Source: Chara braunii
Lineage: Eukaryota > Plantae > Charophyceae
Direction of reading: 5' to 3'
Assembly (NCBI GenBank): GCA_003427395.1
Contig: BFEA01000010.1
Location: 5,566,608-5,613,720 of the forward strand
DNA: 47,113 nucleotides
This document shows, piece by piece, positions 13,231 through 46,652 of the stretch. Made by a program: the position numbers and the translations under genes. Position 1 is the stretch's first letter. Each line of letters opens with the position of its first letter. The notes under the pieces were generated by a model. It had not been told where the DNA came from, made no database searches, and saw only the letters and a program-made list of their open reading frames with translations.

Positions 13231-14739
13231 GCACTCTCTCCGCCTCGCATGCACTTGGACGCGGTTCCCGTCCGGGTTCACTCAACTCCCACCTTTTGCT
13301 GCGTCCGCTGATCCGTCTCTCCGCCTTACCTCCCTGTGCCTGGCGCTCGTCACCCGTTGCCTCCCCGATACCCCGCATGCACCCAGCGCCGGACCCCGTC
13401 CCGATTCATCCTCTTCTGCCACTTCGCCCGTTCGCTCGTCTCTATCTCCCTCGCGTCCGGTTCCTTCGCTCCGTCAGCCCTTTTCCCTGGCTCAGCGTCG
13501 TCGCTCCGCCCACCTCATTGCCCTACCGTCCGTCGCTCCACTACCTTTACACTCGAAGCCTTCGACTCACAGTCCTACCGCCTACGGCCTTGCTGCCCTA
13601 GCGCTGGGCCTGGGCGGCCCCGCCTTGCCTCTTTCGCGTTGCTCCGCCGTTGCTAACGCAGTGCCCATCCGATAGTCGCTCCACAGTGGTCCGCCCATCG
13701 GCCTTTCCTGCGCTATTTGCCATGGTCATCCCCGAGTGGCACTGAGCAACGCCCGCCTCGGTGCTCATAGGGGGAGGGGACCGGGCAAGAAACATAGTGA
13801 CTGGTCTATGGGAGAGGCTCAACCCAGATGCTACTGGCTGACCTCTGCCCTACTCAGGCATTTGCCCCCTACCCCTCGGGCCGGAACGGGCACACCCACG
13901 CCAAAACCCTCTCTCAGCAGGTCGCTGATGGCGTGCGGTAAACTTAAGAGGGCCCCGTCACCTAGGCTGCCGTCTGCCCCGTAGGCTAATCACCCACCGG
14001 CTCACAGGCACGTTGAACTCCTCGGTCCCTATCTCAAGACAGGCAGGGTAGAGAACTTCCGACAGCATCTCGAATACACAGGAACCCGAACTCGGGTCCA
14101 TTTTTTCAACATTTCGATAGGGAACCGGCCAGGCCAGACCCGCCGGCTCCCCCGCGGGTCTTGGGACCGACAATAAAACTTAGGGATAATAATAAAAATA
14201 AGAGCCAAACATCGAAAAGATAATGAAACTAGGGCCGTCGCGTCGCCTACCTTCGATGTCGTGCACCCCGTCTATCAAGCAGACCTCCCACCTTTGTCGA
14301 GGCCGTCCTCCGCACGTAGCACAAGTCACAAGCAAGCGCACCAATCAAAAGACAAAAATCCCTTTAATCCAATTTTAGATCAGAAATAGATAAATAATCA
14401 AAATTTTTTGATCGGCGATCACGTCGGCTCTTCAGTCATTGATGAAGGAAATCACGCGCGCCTCAAGTCTGAGCGCCCAGACACTCTTTATCCTAGTCAA
14501 CCGTCCGGTCAACCTCGACCACAGATGCAGCCGCGCCTCGCACAGAGTACTTAATTTTTAAACCAAAGCTATTTTCTGCCACTTGCAAAAACCAGGGCGG
14601 ATACCCTTGCAAGGGTATTCACACCGACACCACCCCCTACCCCTACCACTGCCTCCCGCCTGACGCCTACTCGTCCAGCTACTGACGAGCCTTCTATTGA
14701 CTATTCTCATACCATCGCTAAGGACGGCACTGTCGAGTC

Positions 14740-16634
14740 TCGCTCAGGTCATTGTCCGATAGCCTTCTACTCCCGTCAGCTCCTGCCCACCGAGATAAAC
14801 TACACCGTTGATGAACGTGAGGTTCTCGCAGTAGTTTATGCCGCTTGGCACTGGCGTCACTACCTGCACGGGGCACCATTCATAGTGTGCACGGACAACT
14901 TTGTTGTCCATGCTTTTCTGACAAAATCGAAGCTCACTCCTCGACAGGCTCGCTGGTCGCGCGACCTATCTGAGTTTAGTTTCACCACTAAGCACTTCAA
15001 GGATGAAACTAATCGGGTTGCAGATCCAGCTCGCTTCTATCTCGGTCACCACTATTCACCACTCGGTGATCGACGAGTTTCGCACTAAGTACCGCCACTG
15101 CCCCGACTATCGTGATATCCACGCGACCCTTTGGAGTGGCAAGACTATCCCAAACTAGTCTCTCGGGGATACTGGCACGGTTCACAGGGCACCAGAGATC
15201 CCCGTATTTGCGTTCCCTTCACTGGACAGCTACGTGTCCGGGCAATAACAGAGTTTCATGACCAGGCAGCTGCCGGTCATATGGGCTTCCACAAGACGTT
15301 GGCTCGTGTGAGCCGCCTGTACGTTTGGTCGAAGCGCAAGGACTTTGTGAAGGATTACGTCACAGAGTGCCCCACCTGTCAGGAGGTGAGCAGTGCGAAC
15401 CACTTGCGTTATAGTTTGCTCCAACCTCTTCCTATCCCTGAGGGTCGTTGGCAGTCCATCTCGATGGACTTTACCGGTCCTCTTCGTCCTCCGACACCCC
15501 ACGGTCATAATGTTATCCTGGTTGTCGTCGACCGCTTCACGAAGCGTGCACGCTTTGTTTCGTGCCGCTATGCCATCAGTGCACGTGAGGTCGCCGACCT
15601 CGTGTTTAACCAAGTCATGCGTGACCACGTTTTATCTCTGAGCATCATACTGACCGTGACCCGCACTTTACCAACCGATTCTGGCGACGACATCACGAGG
15701 TTTACGGCACCTAGCTCCGCTTCTCCTCGTCTTACCATCCCCAGACTGATGGTCAGACCGAGGTCACAAACAGGACTCTCCGAAAGATTGTTCGTGACGA
15801 CCAGCAGTGGGATCTCCATCTTGCCCACGCGGAAATAGTCTACAACCACGCCATCTCGCCAGCCACTGGGATGTCACCTTACTATTGCGACATCGGTCCT
15901 CGTGTTTCCACGGACTTCCTTCGCCCGTCACAGATGCACCCCGATACGAATGTCCCGCGCTGGATGATTGGGTTGCACACATGACGTCGATCATGAAGAC
16001 CGCACATGAGCACATAGCCGCTTCCCAGACTCGCATGGCAGCACGTGCGAACCGATCGAGGATGGATCATCCATTCAAAGTCGGTGACGATGTGCTTATT
16101 GACGCCCGCTACTTACAGCTCGAAGCGGACACGCTTCGCAAGTTTCGGCGTCACTTCTTTGGCTCATGTCGCATTCTCCGTTCTGATACGGCTTCTAGCC
16201 CGATCAACTTCCGTGTGAAGCTGCCCGACTACCTACGCTAGGCTCGTGTGCATGATGTTCACCGCGTCTCGTTATTGCGTCCTTACCGCAGACCGTCTGA
16301 GCGTTTCGTTGGACGACCATACGAGCGTCCTCCACCCATCATGGTGGACGGCCACGAGGAGTTCCTTGTTTCATACATCATTGGTCGCCGAGGCACCGAC
16401 GACAACCCTCCTCACGTCGAGTATCTCGTACGTTGGAAGGGTTACCCTGCTGAGGAGGCTACTTGGGAGCCCCTCGAGCACTTGCAGCACGCTCGCATGT
16501 TGATGCGTGGCTATGATCGAGCTCGTCGTGTTGGGTTGACTGCTCCTCCTCAGCCCACTGACCATCCTCCTTCTCCATCGGTTGAGGAGACCTCTGAAGT
16601 CGAGCCTGCCCCATCTGAGGCAGACCTTCATTAG
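14740..16634 (+). mobile_element. Decayed Ty3/Gypsy chromovirus pol fragment (RNase H - integrase - chromodomain)
   Basis: RNase H PIAFYSRQLLPTEINY..EREVLAVV..WRHYLHG..TDN. Integrase Zn finger H(DQAAAG)H..CPTCQ; WQSISMDF, VVVDRFTK and a frameshifted YHPQTDGQTE. Chromodomain EEFLV..EYLVRWKGYPAEEATWEP. Multiple frameshifts and stops. Confidence 0.95.
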
Positions 16635-21378: not shown

Positions 21379-22199
21379 TCGTCTGGAGTAGAGGAAAATC
21401 GAAATGCAGGTGTCTGTGCGAAGAACTGAGTAGTGGGCGATGGTGGGTGGTGCTACCTGTTCTTCTGCCCGTGATTGATGTCAGTTGTACTCTCGGAAAG
21501 ACTAGTCAGGCTGTATATTTCGTTCCTTCATAATGTCTGTTGTATTGTATTCCTATCGGCCGCCGCAAGTATCTGATGTCCATGGATTAGATTATTAGTG
21601 CTCTCTGGGGTTCATGGTGCTTTGTAGAACCGCCAAATCGGTTGTCCTGGTGTTACTGTTAGAGAGGCGCAGTGTAACCTGAAGAAGACTTTATCGGGTG
21701 TTCATGTCGCGTTTGAAGACTCTTAGCAGCGGACTCTTTATAATTTACGGCGAGAAAGGTTTTGTTGTCTCTCCGGAGCGTCGACTGGCATGAAGTTCGG
21801 GGTCACGGCGATGAAGCAATGGTTACTCCGCTGATCAACAGAAGAGTGTATAGATTGGGTGAGGGGAGAATGGAAAGAGCACAGGAAAGGAAAGAGAGTG
21901 AAAATGACCAGGCAAAAGATGTGCGAAGCGACGGAGTTTTTCTGCTCGTGCTCTGAAGTATCTGTCAAGGTTTCTGTTTTAGATTCTCTGTACCTGGTCA
22001 GGTTATGGTTATTATTCGGTGTCGGACGTCCTCGTCAGTTGTTTTTTTCTGTGGGCAACGAGCTGCTGTAGATGTAACAGGTCTCTCATAGTGACCTCCT
22101 CTTCTCCTCCTCTACGCGTCCTGTTCCCTCTTGTGCATTTCTGTCATTGCTTGTCGTTTTGATTTTTTTGTAATAATTTCGTTTAATCTTCAGCGTTAC

Positions 22200-22233
<34 letters not shown>

Positions 22234-22586
22234 GTATTCTTGTTTCCCTTCTCTTTCTCTGGGCTCTTTTTGGTTTTCGTTTTTTTTATTTGGTTGCTTT
22301 TCCCTCTCTGTGCTCTTTATTATTTCCCCCCCTTTTTTTTTTTTTTTTTGCCTCTCTCGGTGTGTGCTCGTTCTTGTTCAGCTGTCTGTCGTTTCCTTTT
22401 CCCACTTTCACTTTTTACTCCGTCCCCTGCCCCCTTCCCTTCTCTGCTTCCCTTCTCTGGGTGTTGGCACGGCCGTGGCGTAGTCGCTCCTCTAGAAGTC
22501 TTTGTTTTTTGCGTTCTTTCCGCCAGTTTTGGCGTCTTGATCGGGAAGAGGGTCAATTTCTCTCGGCGGAACGACCTGCAGCAAGG

Positions 22587-24002
22587 ATGCAGGCAGCCCC
22601 GCCTGCTGTCTGGTGGGAGGAGTCAGAGTCACAGAAGTGGCAGGAAGGTTGCAAGGCAGAGAGGGAGGCGCGGTGGTACCCGGGACAGGACTGGGAAGAT
22701 ACAGCAATCGCTTACACAGAGGCATGGAGGGAGAAGCCGCCCAATGCCAAGTCGGATTTGCACTCGTCCCAATGGGGGGGAGAACGGAAAAGTGACCAGG
22801 TGTGGTGGCAATCCGATGGGCAGTCCGAGTGGGAAGAGGACTGGGATTCGGATCGCCATCAGGAGGACGACGGGGAGGAAGGGGAGGAGGAAGAAGGAGA
22901 TGAAGACGAGGATGATGATGAAGAAGAAGAAGAAGAAGAAGAAGAAGAAGAAGAAGAAGAAGAAAAGGATGATGCTGTGGCGGACGTCCATGATGACGAT
23001 GACGAGGATGTGGATGCAATTGATGAGAGGGTCTCCTCTCTCGCGAGCTCCATGTACGGCAACGGAGATTGCGACGAAGTGTATGATGGGTGTCTTGGTA
23101 ACGACGCCCTGGAGAACCGGATTTTCCCGCCGAGGATTGACCATCTTAGGATTGAGAAAGGAGAGAGAGAGGTAGTGACGATGGGAGGGAAAGTAAATGG
23201 GCGCGATGGTGGGTGGATTGGGGGGGGGGGATATGAATCTGCGTGCCACGTCGTCGGCGGCGGTGGGTATTGCGGAAGAGCACATGAGTGCCGCTCTTTG
23301 AGTTCTAAGGAGGATGATAGGTTGTTGAGTTATGGGAGTGTTTTCTTGCGTCAACGAGATGTCAATCTTCTTGCTGAACCCAATTGGATCAACGATAAAA
23401 TAATTCAGTTTTACTTCGCTTATTTATCCTCGGAGAAAGCTCGTAATTGGAGAGTTCTCCTCATGGATCCGTCGGCGTCTTTCTGGTTGTCCCATTGCCC
23501 CGATCGTGGGGACGTGTCGAAGGTCGTCGATCAGTTCGAGTTCAACAGGAGGGTTGTTGTTATGTTTCCTGTAAACAATTACGATTATGTGTTCGATAGC
23601 GTTTGGGAAGGCGTAGGAGGAGGGGGGAGTCATTGGAGTCTGTTGGTCTATGTGAGGGACGAAAATCAGTTTCATCACTTTGACTCCAATGGCGGTGTGA
23701 ATTATCGCCACGCCTTGCATCTTGCGAATGCCACGTGGCGCTTTCTAGGAGCGCCGTGCAGGCCGCCGATCATACAAAAGTCAACGCCTCAGCAAACCAA
23801 TGGCCACGATTGTGGGATGTATGTGATCGCCATTGCCGACGTGCTGTGTGCGCTCTATCTCAGTTTACACCTCCATTCATTGGGGAGGAGACTGTCGCCG
23901 TCGAGGGTTGCGCAGGAGGTTGACCAGCTGACTGCCACGTGGATCAGACAGATGAGACTGACAGTGCGGGACTTAATCCAGTCACGAACTCTCTGCCATT
24001 GA
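22587..24002 (+). CDS. NEDP1: NEDD8-specific protease 1 / SENP8-like cysteine protease (Ulp1/peptidase C48) with a long Trp-rich and acidic N-terminal extension
   Basis: First ATG at 22587 (MQAAPP), 471 aa, uninterrupted. C-terminal domain LLSYGSVFLRQRDVNLLAEPNWINDKIIQFYF..VMFPVNN..GGSHWSLLVY..HFDS..PQQTNGHDCGMYVIA contains the His-Asp-Cys triad and oxyanion Gln typical of SENP8/DEN1. Confidence 0.9.
   Translation: MQAAPPAVWWEESESQKWQEGCKAEREARWYPGQDWEDTAIAYTEAWREKPPNAKSDLHSSQWGGERKSDQVWWQSDGQSEWEEDWDSDRHQEDDGEEGEEEEGDEDEDDDEEEEEEEEEEEEEEEKDDAVADVHDDDDEDVDAIDERVSSLASSMYGNGDCDEVYDGCLGNDALENRIFPPRIDHLRIEKGEREVVTMGGKVNGRDGGWIGGGGYESACHVVGGGGYCGRAHECRSLSSKEDDRLLSYGSVFLRQRDVNLLAEPNWINDKIIQFYFAYLSSEKARNWRVLLMDPSASFWLSHCPDRGDVSKVVDQFEFNRRVVVMFPVNNYDYVFDSVWEGVGGGGSHWSLLVYVRDENQFHHFDSNGGVNYRHALHLANATWRFLGAPCRPPIIQKSTPQQTNGHDCGMYVIAIADVLCALYLSLHLHSLGRRLSPSRVAQEVDQLTATWIRQMRLTVRDLIQSRTLCH

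Positions 24003-25707: not shown

Positions 25708-25760
<53 letters not shown>
25605..25760. repeat. (GA)n/(GT)n compound microsatellite abutting the 3' end of the decayed Penelope-like element
   Basis: Seen directly. Confidence 0.95.
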
Positions 25761-25764
<4 letters not shown>

Positions 25765-26879
25765 GCAATATTTGGACTGTGCGCGAGGGTTTACTTTCAC
25801 AGAATACACGTCTTGTCCATCATGCAACCAAAACAGTCGCAATTACCCTTCTACCTCTTTGCTCAGGTAATCCTTTCAGCTATTATGATCAGTATATATA
25901 CCCTTTGGTCCAAATACTTCCCCTTCTGGTTGAACCCTGGTCCCTGTAGTCTCCTGTCATCATCGAGTCATCGTCGCGTTGCTGAATGACCACCGTTCAA
26001 ATGTTCTTCTAGTCGTGATATATCGAAATCATTCCTTCTTCAAAAAACTTTGCGTCATTACGTCACCTGAAGTATCTTCGTCCTTGCTGCTGATATTGGT
26101 TATCCCGATGCTCTTCTGGTCGCGATATGTCAAAAAATTCGTTTCTCAAAAAACTTTGCATCTTCATACGCAATGACATATTCTGGTAGAGCTTTCAAGC
26201 ATCTGTCCTCGTTTGTGAATTTTAATTTAATTTATTTTATTTGGATTTTGGAATTTGGACTTTTTGTTGTCCTTGCTTGTAGTGCTTTTGCGAATCTTCG
26301 AGTGTTGTATCGGTTGAAATCTTGAGATCGGAGATTGATTGTACTTTCCTTGGTCAGTACATTTTTTGAAGAGTCTTGTTTTGAAAAAAAAATTCGACTG
26401 TTTGGTATTTATTTTCGTATGACTTTATCTTCGAAACTCTAGAAATTTCAGTGTTGTATCGGTTTAAATCTTGAGATCGGAGATTGATTGTACTTTCCTT
26501 GGTCAGTACATTTTTTGGAGAGTCTTGTTTTGATTTTTTTTTTTTACTGTTTGGTATTTATTTTCGTACGACTTTATATTTGAAACTCTAGAAATTTTTG
26601 CTTGGGCTTCCCATTCGAAATCCGACAAGGTTTTATATTTCGATATGTTTTCGTACAATTCCTTCAATATTTTCGAGAGAGCCTCAGGTCACCATATTTG
26701 TGTTTCATGTATGGGTACTCGGTTGTATATCTGTTGTATTTTGTTTGATGGAAAGGGGAACTTACTGTTTGTTCTTTCTGTGGACATTTCAATATTGTTT
26801 TTGTGTTTTATTTCTTATTTTAGCAATTCATTATGTCTTTCTTTTTCAGAAATCTAAGAAGATATTTCGTTTTGTGTTG
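25761..26879 (-). repeat. 3' pseudo-LTR of the decayed PLE, with an internal 149 bp tandem duplication at 26301-26598
   Basis: Aligns to 30368-31367 from ACTTGCAATATTTGGAC to TTGTGTTG. Confidence 0.85.
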
Positions 26880-29800
26880 TTTGTACAATTCCTGATAAAG
26901 GCCAAAATGGTCGAACGTGTTGTCATCCATGAGTATTCCAACAATTTAAGCTTTGTGCAATATAAGTTCAATAGGGCGAACAAGTTCATGTCATATGTGT
27001 TTGGTACCATTCTGTGGAAAGTGTCGATGATCGTCAACACTTTCGTGTTCATGTAGTCGACACTTTTTAAATGACGGGTAGACTGAATAAAGAGAGAACT
27101 TGCCAATTGCTCCCGGAGTGTAGCTTCATTCTTAAGTTTATGCGTATATTTCAGGAGGGGTCCATGATCCATCTTCGTGATTCTTGTTTCTAAATAATTC
27201 CATTTTGTACTTTGCATATTTTGCGTGATTCTACTTTTAGTGATGAGTGATAACACTTTGTGAATGAATTAAAGCATGCGGTTTCAGTTTCAATGGTTTT
27301 TCGATTAACAACTACTATGATATTACATCATCAACAAATCTAATACCGTGTACGAGTTTTGGTCCATACCGATTTCAAAACGCCATTTGTATTCGTCATC
27401 TGTGCAAAGTTTGCGATCGGCGGACTAAATCCTTTTCCCATGGGCATTGTCGTAACAATGTATCTTGTACTTTGAAGTATGCATGTTGAATATGAAAATA
27501 TAGGAGGTCAATTTTCGTTGTTTTCCATTCATGTATGTGTCATGTGCTTTTTTAAAATTTATATGTTTTTTTTTAATTTTATAGCATAGATGAGTTTTCC
27601 TTTTGTCTTTCGCTATACTTAGTATCTATTGTATGACGTTCAACACATGTGTATGTTTTAAGTTAAAGAATATATCCTTTATGTCATATGTCGCTCATGG
27701 CACAGTGACATCTTGCTCATATGTCTGTGTTGTCGTTTTGTTGCATTCTTTTAGTTTTGGAACCAGTTGATTTGTACCCTGCAGGGCAAATCCTAATTGC
27801 CACGTACTGCATAGCAAATATAAGGCTCTTGACAAAAATTTTAATGCGTGTCATGTGGGTTCACTGTATGTTGGTACAATTGGGTGTGTTCTGGATACAT
27901 CTTTGTTTTTTGGTATTACGTACGCATTTCCATATAATCTATTATCATCCCACTTAACCACTTTCCCAAATGCATGATATATTTGCTCTACTTGTTGGAG
28001 AATCTCACATGTTGTTTGTTGGATGACTTCGTAGTGTACAAACTCTAAGAAGACGGATTTGCTTTTTTCAAACCACGCCCTTGGGCCTTGCGCATTCAGT
28101 ATATGTTTCATCGGGATTTTTATCTAGCCGTGATAATATATATATCCCTTCAATTTGTTCTTCACCTGCCACACTACAGAGATATCCAGGTGCTGTTTAT
28201 CATTGATGTTCGAGATCATACAATCGGATAAATCCTCATGTGTTCCTTGCATAAATCTTATTTTTGGTGGTATGCAAGGATGTAGTCTGTACTATGGCTC
28301 TATGCACTATCTGTTTTCCTGTTCTTGCATTCATATAAGGTACGTTCTTTGCATTCTACACGAGTTCGTTTTCTTCAATGTGACTTAATCGACAAGCAAC
28401 ATGTGATTTTATCTTTGGAAGCTGACTCATTAGGCATTCACATACGGGCAGTGTCTCCATTACCTGTCTGTGATTATGCAAGATTTCATCGATTGGTTTT
28501 TATTTTTTTTTAACATTACCTGCATGCGTGATACCAAATCTTTTGTCAGGTTGAAATTCTTTATGCTTCCAATTATAGCATCGGATGTTGCGTTGCGAAT
28601 TTGCTTTATGTTGATTTGCGTGACATATGAAATTTTGAATGTCAATCTTCGTTTGATATAGAATGCAAACTTTTTTTTTGATATCCTGGCAAATACACCC
28701 TTTAAAGTTCCACGTCTCTTGCCCATGATGAAACCGACTTTTGTCAGTAGGACAAGTAGATCATCCAATGATAACTTAGATAATTATTTCCTTCTTCATG
28801 GGGCTTTTAGACAGTTAATCAATGTGTTCCTATGTTTATTCGATGATGGTCCTGTGTATATTAACTTGATAACGCAGAATGTATAGCCACCTTCCAGTAA
28901 ATTTCTGCATTCCTTGAGCTTATACTGTACTTCCTCTACGTCAATTATGATAAACTCGAATGTTGGTTTGATCACCTTCCATTTCTCATATCATAACTTG
29001 CCTTCAATACTTTGTATTGTTGCTTTCGGTTGTAGAATCTGGATCAACTTCATTGTGTGAGTGAATCTCGTAGATTTAAACATTACCGACATATTTTGAT
29101 TAATTGTACTTCTCCCGGATTTCTCTTCTCTTCTTTGATTTATATTCTTTCGTTGCTTCCTTTTCTTTCCCATGTATGCTCATGTATGGATTTAGTCTGT
29201 TAACGAGAGCCTCTTCTATCTTGGTTACTTCGGACTTCACCGCCGTCCATATTGGTATGAGTGCGTACTTATGCCAACCAAATTTCCATAGCCAGCTGTA
29301 TAACTTGTGTTGCACACCCTTCCCAATCTTCCGAGCCAGGTTAACATGCTCACACCACCTATTATCCACTCGCCGCCCCATCTTCCCTATGTAAAAGTGA
29401 CTACACCATGGTGAAGCGAGTACATATACACAATGATTCGCATCTAGGAGTGTATCTACTCGTGTATACTGAGCCGTCCATAAATCCACAAATGATCAGT
29501 ATAACCTATTATAGACTATCGAGGGCAGTATTCCATGACCAGTACTGATCATTAGCAATTGAGGGCAGTGTATCTACTCGTGTATACTGAGCAGTTCATA
29601 TCTCCTCCTTGAGGTCGGTTGTGAACCATGCTCTGTTACCACGCGGTGAAAAATCGTTTCGCCTCAGTTCCCACTGCCTTTGACCAAATATTTTGGGTGA
29701 TTCCGATTCAACTATTTTTTTCCTAACTGATGTTGATCTTAATTTGCGTCTACGGTCTCGTGGTGTTCTGGATATCCCTTGTTTGATTCACTTTCTTCCT

Positions 29801-30367
29801 TGCGATGCCGATTACGATGATGAAGAGGAGTGTCTGTGCCTCTGTCTCACCGACGATGAACGCGAACGCGCCATCTTCCCTGAAGTACTTGGCACCGTGG
29901 GTGTGGTAATTGGCACATTGGTTATAGTACTTTGCACCTTGGGTGTGGTTCCTCCACAAAACGTCACGAATGAAAAAGGATCACAAAATCAGGTTGGTGA
30001 AGATAAGAAAAGAGACAAATACACGAGTGAACTACGTACTGAAATGAAGGAGTATGACAAAATAACAAAAAATCCAACATGGTAAAATAGCGAACATGTC
30101 ACAAACAGACCAACCAGAAATGTACAATAAGCGTTGAATCGAACCTCCAATCGCTAAAAGATAGCGCTGCCAATACCCAACAAATAACCAATCAAACCAG
30201 CTTCATGCATTCGTTCCAACTGCAACTACTAAGCCACCGGTTAGTATGATCACGACAAGTAGAAAAACACAAATATATGTAGCCTATAGTTGTATACCAA
30301 CCTGGAATCAATGCCGATCTTCACGGGTGCTTCCCGTGAGTTCAAAGCACCGTGCCTTGAGATATAC

Positions 30368-31367
30368 ACTTGCAATATTTGGACAACACGTGCGAAACTT
30401 TACTTTCACAGAATACACGTCATGTCCATGGCATGTGACCAAAACAGTTGCGATTACACTTCTACCTCTCTGCTCATGTAATCCTTTTAACCATTATCAT
30501 CAATATATATACCATTTGGTCCAAATACTTCCCGTCCGACTGAACCCTAGTCCCTGCAGTCTTCTCTCATCATCGTGTCATCGTTGCGTTACTTAATCAC
30601 CACCATTCAGATGTTATTATAGTCGCGATATGTCGAAATCATTCCTTCTCCGAAAAACTCTGCGTCATTATGTCCCTTGAAGTATCTTCGTCGTTGCTGC
30701 TGATATCGGTTATCCCGATGCTCTTCTGGTCGATATATGTTGAAAATTTCATTTCCGAAAAATCTATGCGTCTTCATATCCAATGAAGTGTCTCGGTAAA
30801 ACTTTCATGTATCCTTTATTTCCATCATCTGTCCTCGTTTGTGAATTTTTATTTGATTTGATTTTATTTGGATTTTAGAATTTAGACTTTATTTTTTTTT
30901 ATCCTTGCTTGCAGTGCTTTTGCGAATATTCCGATGTTATATCTGTTTAAATCCTTAGGTCGGAGATCGATTGCACTTTTCGAGGTCGGTACGTTTTTTG
31001 GAGAGCCTCGCTTTGAATTTCTTTTTCGATTGTTTGATATTTATTTCTGTATGACCTTATTCGAAACCCTAGAAATTCTTGCTCGGCCTTTCCATATGAA
31101 ATCCGACAAGGTTTTATATTTCAACATGTTTTGGTACAATTCCTTCGATATTATGAAGAGAGGCCCAAGTCGCCGTATTTATGTTTCATATACGGGTACT
31201 CCATTGTTTAACCGTTGTATTTCGTTTGATAGAAAAGGGAGCTTACTGTTTTTTTTTCTTTCCATGGACATTTCGACATTGTTTTTGTGTGTTACTTACT
31301 TTTGATTTTACCAATTTCTTATGTTTTTCTTTTCCATAAATTCCAAAAGACATTTCACATTGTGTTG
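30368..31367 (-). repeat. 5' pseudo-LTR of the decayed PLE
   Basis: Diverged direct repeat of 25761-26879. Confidence 0.85.
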
Positions 31368-34962: not shown

Positions 34963-35930
34963 GTTAACGAGTGCATATATTTTCAGGTCTCCTTTCCAGG
35001 CAGTTCAACCACTTTAGGTTAGTACACCACTTTCAGGTTGTGTGTGGATCTATACATGGGGTTGTCTGGAACCGCCTTCAACCAGTTCAACCACTTCAGG
35101 TTGATACACCACTTTCAGATTGCCTACAGATCTATTGCAAATGGTGGGATGGGGTTACCTGAAACCCCTTTCAGAAGCTTCAACCACTTCAGCAGTTTCA
35201 GGTCCCCACCTGAAATTCGTGAAATGACCTGAAGTGACTGAAGCTTCTGAAAGGGGTTTCAGGTACCCCCATCCAATCGTTTGGATGGGGGTACATGAAA
35301 CCCCTTTCAGAAGCTTCAGCCACTTCAGCGGTTTTGGGTCCCCACCTGAAATTCCTGAAATGACCTGAAGTGGTTGAAGCTTCTGAAAGGGGTTTCAGGT
35401 ACCCCCATCGAAATGGTTGGATGTACCTGAAACCCCTTTCAGAAGCTTCAGCCACTTCATCGGTTTAAGGTCCCCACCTGAGATTCCTGAAATTACCTGA
35501 AGTGGCTAAAGCTTCTGAAAGGGGTTTCAGGTACCCCGATCTAACTATTTAGGGGGGGTTACCTGAAAGCCTTTTCAGAACCTTCAACCACTTCAGCGGT
35601 TTCAGGTCCCAACCTGAAATTCCTGAAATGACCTAAAGTGGCTAAAGCTTCTGAAAAGGGTTTCAGGTACCCGCATCCAACCATTTGGATGGGGGTACCT
35701 GAAACCCCATTCAGAAGCTTCAGCCACTTCAGCGGTTTCAGGTCCCCACCTGAAATTCCTAAAATGACCTGAAGTGCCTGAAAAAACAGGCAGAAAAAAA
35801 CAAACAAATATAAAACTTGTCCTCCAAACCACCCGAAACTTCTGAAATGACCTGAAGTGTCTTTAGGCCATTTCAGCGGCTTCAGACCACTTCAGAATCT
35901 TTCATTCTGAAATTTCAAGTGGTCGTTAAC
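34963..35930. repeat. Palindromic tandem array (~136 bp unit x ~5), probably a foldback-type DNA element
   Basis: Units start at ~35157, 35293, 35425, 35561 and 35697. Each complete unit is self-complementary (ACCTGAAACCCCTTTCAGAAGCTTCA.. / ..TGAAGCTTCTGAAAGGGGTTTCAGGT). The array is bounded by GTTAACGA..TCGTTAAC. Confidence 0.85.
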
Positions 35931-37386: not shown

Positions 37387-38780
37387 TTAACTTTCTGAAA
37401 CAGTTCTCTTACTTGATGATTGAGTCTTCTTTCTTTTCTTTGTGATCATTGTAGGGATCATGTCATGATCTTTGAAAATAAGCTTACGAAGCCTTGATCC
37501 TGACACCACATCATGAACTCTTAAACCATCCATCTTCGATATCTCATAGACTTTGCCTTTAGCATCACCTGTAATTATGTAGGGACCGAGCCATCTGGAC
37601 TCCAATCGCGTTGTCCACCGAGTCTCAAGGAAATAGTCAAATAGAAGGACAACGTCACCAATCTTTAACTTCTCTTTCCTTATATATCTCTTTTTGTTCC
37701 ATCTCTCTTTATCTGACAGTCTGCTGGTTACCATTCTTTCTGCAACATCTATCGCATCTTGATCAACCTCTGATATCTGTTTTATTCTGATCTGAAGAAG
37801 CTCTGAAATAAAATATTCCCTGTCACTCTCTTGACTTGACCATGTTCTAATTATACTCTCAATGGGTAAAGTAGCATACCGACCATACCACAAAGTGAAT
37901 GGAGCATAACCAGTGGTTCTCTTGACAATAATGTTGTCAACATAGACTGAAACCCTTAATGCCTTCGTCCAGTTACCGAGATTCCCTTCACACCATTTGG
38001 CCAATGAATCCTTCAGAGTTCTATGAACTCTCTCGACAGGTGCGTTTGCTTGAGGATGATAGGTGGTTACATACCGAATTCTAACAACAGTCTGAGAGTG
38101 GTTCTTCTTACGATCTCATTCCTGAATTCAGATCCTCTGTTTGAAACAAACTCTCTAATAAAGGGGTATCTGAGATAAACTTCCTCTATTCAGTCAGCCA
38201 CTTGCTCGACTATCTTCCTTTTCAGAGTCGTAGCTTCAACATATCTAGAAAAATTATCTTTCATGTTCAGTATGCATCTCATACCACCCTTGCCTGAAGG
38301 CATGGTGATGAGGTCCAAGTGAACTCGACTTCCTGGTTCTACCAGGATAGTAGGGAATAAAGACTCAATCATCCTCGCAGTAGACCTCTTCTGACATAAG
38401 ACACATGACTTACAGAATCTGTAAATCATGTCTCTCGTGTCAGACCAGAAGTAGAGTTTAACTGTCTTAAAGTAGGTTGCTTCAACAACCCTGTGGTCAT
38501 CAACAACCCTCTCGTGTAGAGCAACAATTATTTCTAGCTGTCTTTCTTTTCCACAGACCACCCTCAATGGAGGTAGTCCTCCTTTGCCATCCACGAAGAG
38601 GTGACCTCTCTTTGATCTCAACTTCTTGCTTCGGTCTTTGCAGTAAGACTCCTTTAGCCATTCTCTTTTCATCTTTTTTCAATCTCTTGGTAGTTTCCAT
38701 TATATTCTTCAAATTGAATGATATCTTTTCCTCTTTCTTCTCAACTTCTTCTTCATTCTTTGAGCCGGAACTCTCTTTCA
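37387..38780 (-). mobile_element. Decayed Ty3/Gypsy integrase fragment (no chromodomain seen)
   Basis: HERVVDDH..YFW..FCKSCVLCQ Zn finger; VHLDL; YHPQANAPVERVHRTLKDSL (~38065-38005); TTGYAPFTLWYGR; WLGPY motif. Frameshifted. Confidence 0.92.
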
Positions 38781-38815
38781 GTTCATGAGCAGCCACAGCC
38801 GCCGCATTGACCTTA

Positions 38816-39031
38816 GCATTGTCCCTTCGCCGCTCTAGCCGGGTGAGCCAGCTATACATCCCGCGGTCCCCTACGACAGGATAGGTTTTCGCGGGGCACA
38901 ACTTACTTTCCCTGAGGGTGGTGACAGCCCCTCAGGGAACGTAAGTTGTGCCCCGCGAAAACCTATCCTGTCGTAGGGGACCGCGGGATGTATAGCTGGC
39001 GCACCCTCCTAGAGCGGCGAAGGGACAATGC
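38816..39031. repeat. Near-perfect hairpin: 103-bp arms, 10-nt loop
   Basis: 38816-38918 is the reverse complement of 38929-39031 with 4 mismatches and no indels. Confidence 0.97.
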
Positions 39032-39649: not shown

Positions 39650-40663
39650 CTCCCACAAAGTAGGCAGACTGCGGCTAAACAGTCTGTGCAGCCATAGCCA
39701 AGACACACACATGAAATCGAAAAACTGAGTTCCGAAAGTATGTGAACATGCATGCAAAACTGCGAAAGAGCAACATGTGGCGCCCCTCTACCAGTTTCAC
39801 CCGCCCACACGAGATCATCAGGAGGGTAACTCTGAAACAGAGTCTTCGTGCTCGAAGAGGAGACTCTAGCCGTGCCTCCTGCATTAAGTAGTTTCCTCCG
39901 CGTTACACCCTGTCTCCATCCGATGGAGACAAGAAGTCAAGTACCTACCGACAGAGATCTAAAATAAGTAAGCATAGAGGTTGCCGTACGTTACTCTCGC
40001 GACTGTTCAGCGTAAGTCGACTCCTGTCCCCCATAGGTTGTCATAACCCCTATTGCATATTCCACGCCCTCTCTTATCCCCGTGAGTGCCCTGCTAAAAC
40101 TACCAATTGGGCCCTATAGGCCGGTCCTGTTACACGTTTTTGCTGCCCCAATTCAAAACTCGTCATTTCCTAGTCGAAAACTGGCCTCGGTATTTCAAAA
40201 ACGACCAAAGGGTCGGTGCTCCGAGAGTTCCCGGGCTCCGAGAGTTCCCGGGCTCCCGCACCTTCAAAATCCGACTATCGAACCGTCGGTGATGCGAGTA
40301 TCTTAAACTAATAAAGTATGACCAACAAAATAATCAAAAATAACAAAACTCCGCCCTTCCCGAGGATCAAAAAACCCCGTCTGGATTCCTCGGAACCTGA
40401 AATTACCGAAAAAGACTGCATAAAGAGAAAACAGAAAAACAGAAAACAGAAAACCCTTCCCGTAAAATAAAGTGAAAAACATACCACCCTCAGCCGCTGT
40501 CAACGGTTCGACAGCGAGTCCGTCTTTGAATGGGAACCGCCCGAGGAGCCACCCCGTCTATGTTTCCTTGCGTGATTCGCGGTGTACGAGAAGGCTGAAG
40601 TCAGAGTGTGTAGTGCTCGATTAGGCACAGCCTTGGCCAAGTTGGCCAGGGCACCGAGAGAGA
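39650..40663 (-). repeat. 3' pseudo-LTR
   Basis: From CTCCCAC..AGTAGGCAGACTGCGGCTAAACAG to GCCAAGTTGGCCAGG.CACCGAGAGAGA; highly similar to 45561-46593. Confidence 0.95.
39776..39826 (-). ncRNA. Minimal type I hammerhead ribozyme (3' pLTR copy)
   Basis: Minus strand CCCTC-CTGATGA-TCTCGTGTGGGCGGGT-GAAA-CTG-GTA-GAGGG..CCACA. Confidence 0.8.
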
Positions 40664-43403
40664 CCTCCAGGGGTTACCCCCGGAGGTCTGCTTCACAAAC
40701 CGCGAAGCCGATGGCACCTAATACCAGTTCCTTACTCGTTGCCTGGTCCCATAGCCTCTTAATCATCGTGGTCAATACCGCCTTCTTGACCGATTTAGCA
40801 GAGTAGGAGTTGGAGTCCTGCATTGTTTGGTATCGCATAACACCATCCAGATGCAGACTCTCCGAGTTCTTCGTACTCAGGATATAGTGCAGTCGAATTG
40901 GTGGTTGACAGATCATCATTTCGCCTCCCACAAATTGCCAGGTCATGCCACAGTCATCCTTCCGTACGATCTCCAGGTTCTGGTTGTAGATGCCTTCAAA
41001 CGCGGCGAACAAATCTTCCTATTGTATCATCTTCTGGTCTTGTTCCCGTACTCCAGTGATCACCGAGATATCATCCATGACCCGCCAGCCTCCAATCAGT
41101 CTTCTATCCCCGCCAAGCTCATTTATGAATCGTAATTCGGCCATCGCGCATGTGATTGAGGCAAGTATCGAACTAGTTGACTTGCCCATCGGTATCCCAA
41201 ACACCTGCTTTACTATCTTCTCTCCGCATCTCACCACAGTGTGTCTCAGGTCGTACTTCACGCCTTCCAAAATCAGTTTCAGCTTCAAACTCACACAACC
41301 GTCCATCTTCCTCCTGTTGTTGCTGATGACACAGATCTTCCCCCTCCGCGATACTCTAACTTGCTTGCAGCCTTTATCCTTATAGAGTCTGAGCAGGTGG
41401 TGCACTGCTTGTATCACCGTTTCGTGTGGTATACGGGAGAACATGTCCTTGATGTCATAGCACCTCCCGATCGCACTGTCGCAGCCCGCGACTCTCAGAC
41501 GTATTGCAGTGCCAGCTAGCCTTTCCCCTAGTTCAGCGATAGAGTTCAGGTAAAAGGTACTGTTCTCAGGTAGTCGTTTCCGCAGTTGATGCAGAGCCCG
41601 CGCCACACTCCGATGTGTCATCGAGGCTGGGTCTGCGGGTGCAGGCGCAATCGGCCTCCACCGTGTGAGATCCTTGTGCTTGGGGATCACATACGCGGCC
41701 CCCAAACGACCGTCCGGTTTCCAGGTCCCAATCGCCTGAAGTCCGCTCCTCCTGAAGTCATCTCTGCTCTCTTTAAGGACGTCCGCCTCCGCCTCACAGG
41801 TCCCCACTGCTTCGTAATTCGTGTTCCAAGAGAATGTCTTACCGAATCCATGCCGGTAAAGTACGGGGCACAGTACCGCCGTGCCACCTTGATTGCGGTC
41901 TATAGGTGTGAGCACCAGGCCATCTAGATACACCTTCCAATTGAGCACCTCTTCATCCGTCCAGGTTGTACTTGGTCTCTGTTCGCCGATCAGCACCTCC
42001 CTTGGTTCAATCTCTAGAATCTCCTTCACCTTCAAGTGTTGGGTCGCTAAAAGTACGGCCTTAGCCAGTGTGTCTGTGCTGATAGCTCTGGCCGGTTTGG
42101 TCACATTCTTGGAGTTCCTGACAAAGGTAGGTACGTCCATCTCCGAGAAACTCGTTGATACGTGTCCCTCCAATTTGTGCAGATCCAAGTATCTACACGG
42201 GCAAGGGTACTCCTGCATATTCGCATATTTCTTCTGGTTGTGCAGCAGCTCCGCCACCGTCCAGTTCTTTAGCCACAGGACACGACTTCTGGTCTTCACG
42301 AAATCCACAAGAGGTTTCTCCTTAATCGCCCTATCAATTGCTTGCTCCGCCAAGCTCCTTACACCATTCTTCCGGATACGTGAGTCAAAGGGCAGTTTGA
42401 TGTTAACCCTCTTTCTCACGGTCACGCCCGTCTTCCGGGCTATGACCCGATCCAGCTTCATGCGCAGTCGGTGCTTCGTTCCCTTATCACTGAATAAGCC
42501 TGCAGTCTTATAGAGGCCGATGAGCTTCTTTGTAGGCAGAGGCTGCAGTCTGGAATCCGGTCTCGGCCTCTTGAGCAGAGAGATCAACAAGCTCCTATTA
42601 CGCTCGGTCGTGGTCTTTGACTTAATGATTCGCTTGAACCGCACCTCCCCTCCCTTTTCCAATGCCGCCTTGGATACGCCGAGTCTCGATACTTCTCCCC
42701 CAATCACGATTTCAGAGCCCCCGAAAGCTCGCCTAATTCTCCTCCAGCCGTCTATCCAGCTATCTCTGCTAGCAAACTGTACCATTATCTCCCTCCCGTC
42801 AATGTGTTCCGTCAGCCAGCTAAGGACCAAAGTGATATGCATCCCCTGGTATCCCATCATAGTCACTCTCTGCAAGCGTATTGTTCTCCTACATCCGCCT
42901 CTCTCCCGTCTGCCCTTCCTCCATCTGCCCTTTGACAGTTTCTCTTTTCCGCCCTTTCCTCTATCCCTCGAGTTCAAGCTAGGATTAAAAACCGAAATCA
43001 AGTGCTTCTCGAAAGCATAGTCATCCGTGCTATTTGCGTGTCGTAATGGTATCACAACATACATATCCAGTCCAAATCTACGGAGCCATCGGTACAGCTG
43101 CGGCGACTGTCCAAGCGCATTGCTTCTCGTATTCCTACAATGCTCTTTCCACCTTTGGATGATCGGTTTCACCGTACAGCCCACGTATACCTTCTTGGTC
43201 CACGGGCTAGCTAGAGCGTACACGCCCCCGGTGTCCAAATCTAGCAGGCTGGGCAGCTCCTGAGTAATCGTGAGGTATTTTGTTAGCCAAGGGACTTGCC
43301 CCTATGCAGCCAGCAGTAGAGTAGTACAAGTGATGGCGCATTCCACCTTCCGTACCATTTCGCCTGTCACCTCCCGCCCCCATAGCCACGCTCTTTCAGC
43401 CAT
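40500..43403 (-). pseudogene. GIY-YIG endonuclease + reverse transcriptase of the Penelope-like element (longest open part 41019-43238)
   Basis: GIY-YIG GVYALASPWTKKVYVGCT..RWKEH..E..LI..FNPSLN. RT PIDRN, YVIPKHK..RWRPI, YDIKDMFSRIPH, QVFGIPMGKSTS, WRVMDD. The thumb continues in frame past stops at 41021 and 40676 (LRG*P where LRGYP is expected) to TGA at 40502. ATG at 43403, with a TAG at 43304. Confidence 0.92.
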
Positions 43404-43454
43404 CCACGAGCCAAGAAGATTCCAGAGTTCTGCGCGGGTAGGGGGAATTAATCG

Positions 43455-44656
43455 TTATTTGGAATCCTCCATCGGATGCGTCGATGCCGAATGTATGATG
43501 ACCGGTACCGGTCTCGCGGTTGGTCGTTCGGAAGTGGTCTTGTCTTTCACGAACTCCTTACGCGGTGAGCAAGATGCTTTCGTCTTGATCTTCACCGCCG
43601 TGCTCCCCGGTGTTTCGTCGAAGCCGTCGTATGCTAGTTGAACTTGGTGTCGCGCAAGTATCTCCACAGCTTCCGGTTTCTTCGTTTACTTCAGTCCCTT
43701 CTGCTCGCATAGCTTCCTCAGCACGTCCGCTTTCTTGCTGGAGTAAATCTTATGAGCTGAGATGCAGTAATCGATGAGTCCCGTTTGTGAGCACCCGGCT
43801 GATAGACCCTTGAAATTGCCAGTCAAGGGCGTCTGAGGTTCACCATCGATGCCAGGTTCATCCTCCTGTCTCACCGGCAGTTGCTTGGAGCTTTTGCCCC
43901 GTTTGTAAACTCTACTTGGCGGTGTGCGTTCTGAAGGTCTCTTGTCCTTATCCTTCTTCGGTTTCGCTTTCCGCCTCGATCGTTTCACAGTGCGCTTACC
44001 GCGTGCCTTCACCCGCGCTCTGGTTCCTTGCGTGTCAGAGTCACTAGTTGACGAGTCTGATACTTCTTCATTGGATGTATTCTCTGATTCCGACTCCTCG
44101 CTCGACGACTCCAGTACCTTCTTCTTCCGATTCTGGCCTATCTTCCGTTTGGTTCCACTCCCACTTTTCCCAGTGTGCTTCTGTGTCGATTTCCTAGTCT
44201 TCTCAACCGCTTCCTTAGCTTCCGAGTTAGTTCTCCTCCATTCTTCTAGTTGCTCGGCGCGTAGTTGTAATCGAAACTCCTCCGCCTTCTGCGCGAAGTC
44301 TTGGTTTCTACGTATCTCATCTTCCTCCTTGGCTTTTCGTTCTTCCTCCAATCTACGCTTCTCCGGTAGTTCATGTCTTTCCTTTCGAAACTGCCGAAAG
44401 TGCTCCTTCATTTCTTCTAGCTCGGGGTCGCCTTGTTGTAAACTATAGTTTCTCCCTCTCTTCGCCCAGCAATCACGAGCGAAATGTCCGATCTTTCCAC
44501 AGTTAAAACATGTGTTGTTGCCACCCCTCCCCCTCCGCCTCCCCCTCCACTACCGTATCTGTTACCACCCCCATAGTTGTCGTACGCCTATCCCTTGGGC
44601 GCGTTATTGTAACCACCTCCCCCTCCTCCGTCGCCCGGGCCGTTCGTCAGCAACAT
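43455..44656 (-). pseudogene. Gag-like/nucleic-acid-binding region: Gly-rich, CCHC zinc knuckle, coiled coil, Lys/Ser-rich, SAP/HeH-like helix
   Basis: CFNCGKIGHFARDC at ~44511-44470 is in frame with ORFs 43686-44411 and 43455-43667. ATG at 44656 (MLLTNGPGDGGGG), with a TAG at 44590 and one frameshift in the G-run near 44530-44550. KKADVLRKLCEQKGLK*TKKPEAVEILA looks SAP-like. Confidence 0.75.
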
Positions 44657-44729
44657 CCTGTCTACGCCTATCCCTTCGGAGAATCAGCCCGTCCGTCACC
44701 GTCTCTCCGGATAGTGCGTGCACCTCCCG

Positions 44730-45183
44730 TTATCTCTGTCCCTCACTCTTAGCTCGTACTCGATCTACGTCGGCCTTGAAGAATCGTATCAGACTATCGG
44801 AACTACCCTCCAGATAACCCCAATTCCCGGCAGCTAATCAGACGTATGACCGTGCTTTATCGGAGTATACTTGGCTTCGAAGCAGATCGCATTCCTTACT
44901 ATCGGAACTACTCTCTCCAGATATCCACAACTTCACGGTAGCTAACCTGCCGCCTCGTACGTAACACTAACACGGTGGTTTCAATTCTGATCAGCAAGTC
45001 CATCAGCTTCTCATATAAGGCCATACAAAGTGCTTCGTTATTAACGTATCCTATCAGGTAGTGCATAGGCTCAACAGTATCCCTCACGTACTCTTCAAGC
45101 GCTTGGATAAGCCTAGTCCGTACGGTGGAACGCCTCCTGTGTATCTCGCACCTACCGCCGCATCCAGCACATGGCGTCGGCAT
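44730..45183 (-). pseudogene. Upstream ORF of unknown function inside the PLE
   Basis: ATG at 45183, MPTPCAGCGGRCEIH..RLIQALEEYVRDTVEPMHYLIGY..LYEKLMDLLIRIE. A plausible frameshifted continuation ..ECDLLRSQVYSDKARSYV*LAAGNWGYLEGSSDSLIRFFKADVDRVRAK runs to TAA at 44732. Confidence 0.5.
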
Positions 45184-45560
45184 CTCGTCAGAAAGCGGAA
45201 CCTAGTACTAAGAGCCCGACGCCGATAAGTATAACGCCGAGCCCATACAGCAGAGACCATATGGCTGTCGCTCTCCTCATCCCTTCTGTGGGTTCACTCG
45301 GATCGCTCCTCGTCCGAACCAGCCGTCGTGGCCGTTTCTAGCGGCTAGTAAGACCCAGCTTCTCCGGATTGCTTACCTTTGTGTGACCCCTCCGCTCACG
45401 CACCCGCCGTCCGTCGTCACAGTCACCTCATCATGTTACCTCTTACCGTGTCCTGATATCTGCTCTGCAGGTAGCCACGTACCCAGCAGGCGAAGTCATC
45501 CCAAGTCACCGAGTTGTCGAGGTAGCCACCAAGCAGCGCGTGCAGCTGACGGTTACTACG

Positions 45561-46585
45561 CTCCCACGAGTAGGCAGACTGCGGCTAAACAGTTTGTGCA
45601 GCCATAGCCAAGACACACACATGGAATCGAAAAACTGAGTTCCGAAAGTATGTGAACATGCATGCAAAACTGCGAAAGAGCAACATGTGGCACCCCTCTA
45701 CCGGTTTCACCTGCCCACACGGGATCATCAGGAGGGTGACTCCGAAACAGAGCCTTCGTGCTCGAAGAGGAGACTCTAGCCGTGCCTCCTACATTAAGTA
45801 GTTTCCTCCGCGTTATGCCCCGTCTCCATCCGATGGAGCAAGAAGTCAAGTACCTACCGACCAAGATCTAAAATAAGTAAGCATAGAGGTTGCCGTACGT
45901 TACTCTCGCGGCTGTTCAGCGTAAGTCGACTCCTGTCCCCCATATGTTGTCATAACCCCTACTGCATATTCCACGCCCTCTCTTATCCCCGTAAGTGCCC
46001 TGCTAAAACTACCAATTGGGCCCTATAGGCCGGTCCTGTTACACGTCTTTGCTGCCCCGATTCCAAACTCGTCATTTCCTAGCCGAAAACTGGCCTCGGT
46101 ATTCAAAAACGACCAAAGGGTCAGTGCTCCGAGAGTTCCCGGGCTCCGAGAGTTCTCGGGCTCCGAGAGTTCCCCGGCTCCCGCACCTTCAAAATCCGAC
46201 TATCGAACCGTCGGTGATGCGAGTATCTTAAACTAATAAAGTACAACCAACAAAATAATCAAAAATAACAAAACTCCGCCCTTCCCGAGGATCAAAAAAA
46301 CCCCGTCCGGATTCCTCGGAACTTGAAGTTACCGAAAAATACTGCAGAAAGAGAAAATATAAAAACAGAAAACAGAAAACCGTTCCCGTAAAATAAAGTG
46401 AAAAACATACCACCCTCAGCCGCTATCAACGGTTCGACAGCGAGTCCGTCTTTGAATGGGAACCTCCCGAGGCTCCCGAGGAGCCACCCCGTCTATGTTT
46501 CCTTGCGTGATTCGCGGTGTACGAGAAGGCTGAAGTTAGAGTGTGTAGTGCTCGATTAGGCACAGCCTTAGCCAAGTTGGCCAGG

Positions 46586-46593
<8 letters not shown>
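45561..46593 (-). repeat. 5' pseudo-LTR
   Basis: Direct repeat of 39650-40663 that merges into (GA)n at 46591. Confidence 0.95.
45686..45738 (-). ncRNA. Minimal type I hammerhead ribozyme (5' pLTR copy) with palindromic stem III
   Basis: Minus strand CACCCTC-CTGATGA-TCCCGTGTGGGCAGGT-GAAACCGGTA-GAGGGGTG-CCACA. Intact core, ACCGGT palindrome, GUA cleavage triplet. Confidence 0.85.

Positions 46594-46652
<59 letters not shown>
46591..46652. repeat. (GA)n microsatellite
   Basis: Seen directly. Confidence 0.97.

What the first reader, a model, noticed from the sequence alone, without database searches (positions are those of the whole stretch)
39650..46593. Multi-module permuted Penelope-like retroelement: ribozyme, unknown ORF0, CCHC/SAP-like region, GIY-YIG, RT
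Seen on the minus strand, in order: pLTR with hammerhead, ORF0, Gly-rich CCHC-knuckle/coiled-coil/SAP-like region, GIY-YIG, RT, then the second pLTR. Established: canonical PLEs place GIY-YIG after RT, while the Naiad/Chlamys clade places it first, and PLEs usually have one ORF and no gag. Inference: this is a green-lineage PLE subfamily with ~1.7 kb of extra upstream coding, including a retroviral-type nucleocapsid knuckle, possibly an RNP-chaperoning system.
Basis: partly seen in the sequence, partly recalled or inferred. Interest (0 to 1): 0.85.

Follow-up and report, generated by a model that had tools for sequence, protein, structure and literature searches.

The report
Chara Penelope retroelement with hidden ORF0
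This is a broken copy of an already described kind of jumping gene from the alga Chara; its one unreported part is a small upstream gene that is likely real and is predicted to make a membrane-anchored protein.

Summary
The anatomy is real: minus strand, (CT)31 – pLTR with hammerhead – ORF0 – ORF1 (Gly-rich, one CCHC knuckle, charged helix, SAP-like motif) – GIY-YIG – RT – pLTR with hammerhead. The upstream modules are not a nested insertion: 8 of 9 other Chara braunii gene models found with the EN-RT also carry ORF1 parts. But the design is published. Craig et al. 2021 (PMC8557442) describe C. braunii Chlamys elements with an upstream gag-like knuckle ORF and a 3' hammerhead (Chlamys-2/-5_cBra). 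Chlamys-5_cBra also targets (CT)n and has the same length and layout. This copy is a dead member of a sister family (about 50% amino-acid identity to a Chlamys-5-like model). Two points are not in the paper's text or metadata. First, ORF0 has an intact 132-codon counterpart in the Chlamys-5 consensus (41 identities over 98 aligned positions, by eye), with a hydrophobic helix and CxxC; here it is split by a frameshift shared with another copy. Second, ORF1 and EN-RT are separated by an in-frame stop at the same place in both families. The SAP call is inconclusive, and no RT tree was built.

The parts
46591..46652 (-). (TC)31 host microsatellite at the 5' junction; its last four units coincide with a (TC)4 stretch inside the element's RT C-terminal codons, where the 5' pLTR begins
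45561..46598 (-). 5' pseudo-LTR (5'-truncated tandem copy of the 3' end; main body starts at about 45570)
45694..45736 (-). type I hammerhead motif in 5' pLTR; predicted cut after 45699; palindromic 2-bp stem III
   Evidence: same stem I and III as Chlamys-2/-5_cBra rows
45188..45280 (-). ORF0, first part: 30 codons from ATG, one hydrophobic helix (Kyte-Doolittle 19-residue mean 2.33), ends in TGA
   Evidence: 12 of 18 residues identical to the Chlamys-5 consensus ORF, by eye
44908..45183 (-). ORF0, second part, other frame: 91 codons from ATG, CxxC then three predicted helices
   Evidence: 23 of 70 ungapped identities and same stop position in Chlamys-5 consensus, by eye
43455..44656 (-). ORF1 (about 400 codons; broken by stops at 44590 and 43688 and a frameshift in the G-rich stretch near 44550)
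44469..44510 (-). single CCHC zinc knuckle
   Evidence: Pfam zf-CCHC E 2e-7; family profile's best PDB matches are retroviral nucleocapsid knuckles, E 3e-4
44230..44430 (-). conserved E/K/R-rich helix, likely coiled coil, followed by basic and Ser/acidic low-complexity blocks
   Evidence: coiled coil judged from composition, no predictor run
43620..43830 (-). best-conserved ORF1 block; predicted helix-loop-helix, SAP-like but unproven
   Evidence: (82% mean column identity)
43455..43457 (-). in-frame TAA between ORF1 and ORF2; Chlamys-5 consensus has an in-frame TGA at the same place
   Evidence: by eye
40500..43454 (-). ORF2: EN-linker-CxC-RT-thumb (broken by stops at 43304, 41021, 40676); last ~55 codons lie in the 3' pLTR
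42981..43229 (-). GIY-YIG endonuclease without cysteines between the two motifs
   Evidence: Pfam E 9.6e-7; NCBIfam group I intron endonuclease E 1.9e-6, below its cut-off
42195..42203 (-). CxC motif diagnostic of Naiad/Chlamys
40900..41900 (-). RT core with long insertion between motifs A and B'
39650..40663 (-). 3' pseudo-LTR, ending in a ~10-nt tail that repeats the start of the body
39784..39826 (-). hammerhead motif in 3' pLTR; predicted cut after 39789; stem III palindrome lost by one transition

Best explanation
This is a full-length but broken copy of a Chara braunii Chlamys-type Penelope-like retroelement, from a sister family of the published Chlamys-5_cBra, which likely spread by endonuclease-nicked, target-primed reverse transcription into (CT)n microsatellites. 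Shown: domain order, repeats, breaks, co-occurrence of ORF1 with EN-RT in other copies. Inferred, by analogy with the one PLE studied in vitro (PMC11167929): the EN-RT protein nicks the target and starts copying just past the pLTR-body junction of a tandem RNA (hence the short tail). It then runs through one unit into the next (hence the 5' pLTR), and here it stopped where an internal (TC)4 could pair with the target. Inferred: ORF1 is the abundant RNA-binding, oligomerising chaperone; EN-RT is made at a lower rate across the stop; ORF0 is a small membrane-anchored accessory protein that is not needed in cis.
For: Window ORFs are 100% identical to C. braunii model CBR_g4324; all 24 proteins found are C. 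braunii models, each on a contig of different length. 8 of 9 non-self models found with EN-RT carry ORF1 parts; over both searches 20 of 23 (the second search selected for long fused models). Published subtype: upstream knuckle ORF plus 3' hammerhead; Chlamys-5_cBra is 5848 bp with (CT)n target against 5910 bp here; ORF1 starts at nt 921 there (by eye) and 914 nt into the body here. P0017 matches the Chlamys-5 protein almost letter for letter in the SAP-like block (by eye) and is 49.5% identical to the window over ORF2. Six contigs of run X1 leave the element's 3' end at 45568 into a CT-type repeat (agreement 0.64). RT look-alikes in the Atlas are eukaryotic RT/HTH_animal clusters, score 0.93-0.97 (a lead only).
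Against: No RT tree was built, so clade placement rests on motifs and on kinship to Chlamys-5, which the paper's table lists as included in its trees (figures not seen). All comparisons with the published consensi were read by eye. This copy's own 3' flank is not a microsatellite and no target-site duplication was found. ORF0's frameshift is shared by a second copy about 91% alike, and synonymous excess among close copies is only suggestive (18 of the 40 listed changes, of 51; 13.3 expected; p about 0.07). No protein relative of ORF0 was found. RNA reads are scarce: 3, 26 and 7 laid from 0.9-1.7 billion letters of three oligo-dT runs, none 99% alike, none on ORF0.
Confidence: 0.9

Rival explanations
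1. The upstream coding region is a nested fragment of a Ty3/gypsy gag or other passenger, not part of the PLE.
For: The knuckle is of nucleocapsid type; gypsy debris lies close by; 3 models that join ORF1-like parts with gypsy RT/RNase H or integrase domains were scanned or labelled (P0011, P0019, P0023).
Against: ORF1 precedes EN-RT parts in 20 of 23 other models at about 40-90% identity and is in the published consensi. The mixed models are best read as gene-predictor fusions of neighbouring elements.
Confidence: 0.02
2. The element is as described, but ORF0 is a dying relic (or conserved 5' UTR) with no current role.
For: Frameshift shared by at least two copies; another copy has a 14-nt deletion in the hydrophobic part; Chlamys-2_cBra has only ~150 nt before ORF1 and so no ORF0 (by eye); no RNA cover.
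Against: Between families about 50% apart, the frame keeps 41 of 98 residues, the hydrophobic helix, CxxC and the stop position, with third-position changes at conserved residues (by eye; binomial p 1e-10 even at 15% chance identity). It is open in the Chlamys-5 consensus.
Confidence: 0.3
3. ORF2 is made from its own start or a spliced RNA rather than by readthrough of the ORF1 stop.
For: In-frame ATGs at 43403 and 43358 in this copy; stop codon and context differ between families; Chlamys-2 has ORF2 in the +1 frame, and both consensi show a TGATG stop-start overlap (by eye); PLEs can carry introns.
Against: Neither consensus has an in-frame ATG between the stop and the GIY-YIG, and residues just after the stop (PTxxELW) are conserved upstream of this copy's first ATG (by eye).
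Confidence: 0.45

Closest known systems
Chlamys-5_cBra (Craig et al. 2021, PMC8557442; sections and supplement parts read)
   Same: Species, length (5848 vs 5910 bp), (CT)n target, ORF1 with knuckle, N-terminal GIY-YIG, hammerhead stems I and III, terminal sequences, position of ORF1 and of its stop, and an ORF0 counterpart.
   Different: About 50% amino-acid identity in ORF2 (via proxy P0017); different hammerhead stem II and GUA instead of GUC cut triplet; ORF0 split here and open in the consensus; ORF0 is not annotated in the paper's text or metadata.
Chlamys-2_cBra and Chlamys-3_cBra (same paper)
   Same: ORF1 before EN-RT, hammerhead, similar helix-loop-helix motif near the ORF1 end (by eye).
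   Different: Chlamys-2 has no room for ORF0 and ORF2 lies in the +1 frame; sequences far more divergent.
Poseidon PAc of Anolis (Frangieh et al. 2024, PMC11167929; main text read)
   Same: pLTR tandem structure, tail, hammerhead, GIY-YIG plus RT; source of the mechanistic model (internal initiation, protein-assisted ribozyme).
   Different: Single ORF, C-terminal endonuclease, AT-rich targets.
Terminons, giant Athena PLEs of bdelloid rotifers (passages of PMC6431247, PMC5408684)
   Same: PLEs with accessory coiled-coil and transmembrane ORFs, so a membrane ORF in a PLE has precedent.
   Different: EN-deficient RT clade, telomeric, up to 40 kb; no homology to ORF0 was tested or shown.

Membership tests
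Chlamys (Naiad/Chlamys PLE clade) | GIY-YIG endonuclease N-terminal to RT | tested here: met
   EN 43229-42981 precedes RT motifs 41459-41081 in one frame
Chlamys (Naiad/Chlamys PLE clade) | EN lacks CCHH and CX2-5CxxC fingers but keeps R, H, E, N | tested here: met
   No Cys between the two motifs; R/H, E and N present (translation, positions; read by eye)
Chlamys (Naiad/Chlamys PLE clade) | CxC motif between EN and RT | tested here: met
   At 42203; present in the homologues that span the region
Chlamys (Naiad/Chlamys PLE clade) | Insertion in fingers between RT motifs A and B' | tested here: met
   89 residues here against about 88 in Chlamys-2_cBra and about 64 in Penelope, counted by eye in fig. 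S1 text
Chlamys (Naiad/Chlamys PLE clade) | DK motif before RT | tested here: inconclusive
   Reads DR here, as in the Chlamys-5_cBra row: a shared variant
Chlamys (Naiad/Chlamys PLE clade) | pLTR from partial tandem, tail, microsatellite target | tested here: met
Chlamys (Naiad/Chlamys PLE clade) | RT groups with Naiad/Chlamys in a tree | not tested
Chara knuckle-ORF1 subtype (Chlamys-2/-5_cBra) | Upstream ORF1 with gag-like zf-CCHC | tested here: met
Chara knuckle-ORF1 subtype (Chlamys-2/-5_cBra) | Canonical 3' hammerhead motif | tested here: met
   Core and stems match the published rows; cleavage itself not testable
Chlamys-5_cBra family itself | Near identity to the consensus | tested here: not met
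   49.5% amino-acid identity to proxy P0017 over ORF2; proxy chosen by eye
SAP domain | Profile match or helix-extended loop-helix fold | tested here: inconclusive
   Pfam E 0.055 in 1 of 15; model pLDDT 52 with helix 38-48, 7-residue loop, helix 56-72; best Z 5.0, rmsd 5.7, unrelated
LTR retrotransposon | True LTRs, protease, RNase H, integrase | tested here: not met
   The repeat begins inside RT coding sequence; the element's ORFs hit only zf-CCHC families and GIY-YIG
Retroviral-type Gag | Capsid domain besides the knuckle | tested here: inconclusive
   Pfam and PDB profile matches are confined to the knuckle; whole ORF1 was not folded

The most novel reading that the evidence does not exclude
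A Penelope-like lineage has converged on a retrovirus-like three-gene plan: a membrane-anchored ORF0, a gag-like ORF1, and an EN-RT made by recoding at the ORF1 stop, with ORF0 tethering or moving the RNP on membranes in Chara's giant cells.
Probability: 0.15. Interest if true: 0.65.

Novelty: new member of a known kind. Interest (0 to 1): 0.28.

Why it matters
What remains is a small extension. A conserved, unannotated ORF with a predicted membrane anchor sits ahead of ORF1, and there is an open question of how EN-RT is translated when two consensi have no ATG before the endonuclease. If ORF0 is a working membrane protein it would extend the membrane-ORF theme from rotifer Terminons to an endonuclease-bearing green-lineage PLE and give a compact test case for what such ORFs do.

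Tried and rejected
No genome is held for this window, so no genome-wide copy count or consensus comparison was possible. ORF0 second part: no hit in the word-index search (3 candidates, none at E 1, lengths 50-161 only); 0 hits among 1.84 billion representatives; 0 of 23 other gene models contain it; no Pfam family for the 97-codon frame. Its single-sequence model (pLDDT 79.5) gave only generic helical matches (best Z 7.7, rmsd 4.6, 91 aligned; best viral E 0.84), so no fold is claimed. SAP-like block: no significant PDB sequence match, no usable Atlas hit. RT: no PDB relative for the single sequence or the family profile. Rfam and free folding missed the hammerhead. No RNA holder was listed by the run search. 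Earlier scan findings: none by sequence or words. Literature: six searches listed no other paper describing these Chara elements; most listed papers were seen only as listings. 'ORF0', 'transmembrane', 'hydrophobic' and 'readthrough' occur 0 times in the Craig supplement text and 'ORF0', 'transmembrane', 'readthrough' 0 times in its main text. Figures 5, 6 and 8, one picture-only supplement page and protein lines cut at 400 letters were not visible, so an ORF0 drawn there cannot be excluded. PMC12477816 (passages) only lists Chlamys in Ectocarpus. An 18-nt GT..AG stretch at the ORF0 break was considered as an intron and rejected: too short and frame-neutral.
Full report
Observation. The region 39650-46598 carries two direct repeats, 45561-46598 and 39650-40663, 93.2% identical; the global alignment has 39 substitutions in 1011 bases, mostly transitions. 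Each holds a hammerhead core on the minus strand, at 45731 and 39821, with a five-pair stem I and a two-pair stem III. Rfam and free folding do not find it, so it rests on the core, the stems and the match to published rows. Between the repeats, Pfam finds a CCHC knuckle (E 2e-7) and, further on, a GIY-YIG domain (E 9.6e-7). RT motifs follow in the same frame. The copy is dead: premature stops at 44590, 43688, 43304, 41021 and 40676, and frameshifts in ORF0 and at the start of ORF1.

Do the modules belong together? The window's frames are 100% identical to Chara braunii gene model CBR_g4324, and all 24 proteins found by two searches are C. braunii models on contigs of different lengths. Of the 9 non-self models found with the EN-RT frame, 8 also carry ORF1 parts, 6 of them the knuckle. 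Over both searches 20 of 23 carry parts of both ORFs, in the same order (the second search favoured long fused models). A nested insertion is excluded for ORF1. None of the 23 models includes ORF0.

What is known. Craig et al. 2021 (PMC8557442; I read the introduction, results and discussion, and 6 of 59 supplement parts plus searches) report three Chlamys types in C. braunii. [quoted passage not shown] The window's unit is 5910 bp and abuts (TC)31. The Chlamys-5 ORF1 is plainly homologous to ours, and its hammerhead has the same stems I and III. Model P0017 matches the Chlamys-5 protein almost exactly in one block (by eye) and is 49.5% identical to the window over ORF2. So this is a sister family, not the same one. 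Diagnostic Chlamys features are met: N-terminal EN without zinc fingers, CxC, fingers insertion. I could not build an RT tree. The Atlas's nearest RT clusters are eukaryotic RT/HTH_animal sets, a lead consistent with PLEs.

ORF0. In the window it is a 30-codon frame with a strongly hydrophobic stretch (45280-45188), followed four bases later by a 91-codon frame that starts with CxxC (45183-44908). Translating the first 900 nt of the Chlamys-5 consensus by eye gives one open 132-codon frame at nt 235-633 that matches both parts. There are 12 of 18 identities in the hydrophobic helix, 6 of 10 around CxxC, and 23 of 70 without gaps to a stop at the same position. Twelve residues between the last two blocks, with one gap, were left out of the count. 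Chance is excluded even at 15% background identity. The paper's text and metadata do not mention it (figures not seen). Against a current role: a second copy about 91% alike has no indel at the break, so the split is shared, and a third has a 14-nt deletion in the helix. Synonymous excess among close copies is weak (18 of 40 listed changes, p about 0.07). Chlamys-2 lacks the region. No relatives or specific fold were found. I put 0.8 on ORF0 having been a protein-coding gene of this lineage, and less on it working today in this family. Membrane ORFs in PLEs have precedent in rotifer Terminons (passages).

ORF1. After a Gly-rich start come one knuckle, a conserved charged helix, basic and acidic low-complexity blocks, and a 77-residue block with 82% mean identity among 15 models. 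The knuckle's best PDB matches are retroviral nucleocapsids, but nothing beyond the knuckle resembles Gag. The SAP call has one sub-threshold Pfam match in 15 and a low-confidence helix-loop-helix model: plausible, unproven. A SAP domain is already known in another Chlamys element.

ORF1/ORF2 junction. ORF1 ends in TAA at 43457 and ORF2 continues in frame. The Chlamys-5 consensus has an in-frame TGA at the same residue and no in-frame ATG before the endonuclease. In Chlamys-2 ORF2 lies in the +1 frame, also without ATG (by eye). This copy does have in-frame ATGs at 43403 and 43358. Recoding (about 0.55) and reinitiation or splicing (about 0.45) both remain open.

Mechanism. By analogy with the anole PLE studied in vitro (PMC11167929), the EN-RT likely nicks the target and primes reverse transcription internally, just past the pLTR-body junction of a tandem transcript. 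That would give the ~10-nt tail seen at 39650-39659. Copying on into the preceding unit gives the 5' pLTR. Here it ends exactly at a (TC)4 stretch in the RT C-terminal codons that merges with the host (TC)31, which suggests microhomology-aided joining (inference). Six contigs of run X1 show other copies' 3' ends running into a CT-type repeat, while this copy's 3' flank is unique sequence. ORF1 as RNA chaperone and ORF0 as membrane anchor are inferences. Expression of this copy is not shown: 3, 26 and 7 reads from 6-13% of three oligo-dT runs, none 99% alike and none on ORF0.

Verdict. A real, correctly read element of a kind named in 2021; a new sister family with a likely overlooked ORF0 and an open translation question. 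Interest 0.28.

Noticed in passing
window 25752-31367 (-): A second, much more decayed Chlamys-type PLE: repeats 25752-26447 and 30359-31077 at 80% identity, GIY-YIG remnant near 29430, RT remnant 27500-28500, 3' end against (CT)n; its 3' end reads like the Chlamys-3_cBra consensus by eye.
   Followed up: partly
window 37387-38931 (-): Broken Ty3/gypsy-type integrase (Pfam Integrase_H2C2 E 6e-9) with a 216-bp near-perfect hairpin at 38816-39031 (arms 103 nt, 96%), perhaps a MITE.
   Followed up: no
window 22095-24002 (+): 635-codon stop-to-stop frame whose C-terminal part looks by eye like a Ulp1/SENP8-type cysteine protease, probably a host gene; not scanned.
   Followed up: no
window 14555-15838 (+): Ty3/gypsy-like RNase H and integrase remnants, judged by eye from the translations.
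   Followed up: no
window 35147-35885: About six copies of a ~136-bp repeat with internal inverted symmetry.
   Followed up: no
window 40693-46547, run X1 contigs: 14 joints that skip parts of the element (54-1681 nt), most with short sides; possibly internally deleted copies.
   Followed up: no
window 45700-45750: Contig depth of run X1 peaks over the hammerhead end of the pLTR (206 against 8-65 in the body bins), as expected of many 5'-truncated copies and related families (depth is no copy number).
   Followed up: no
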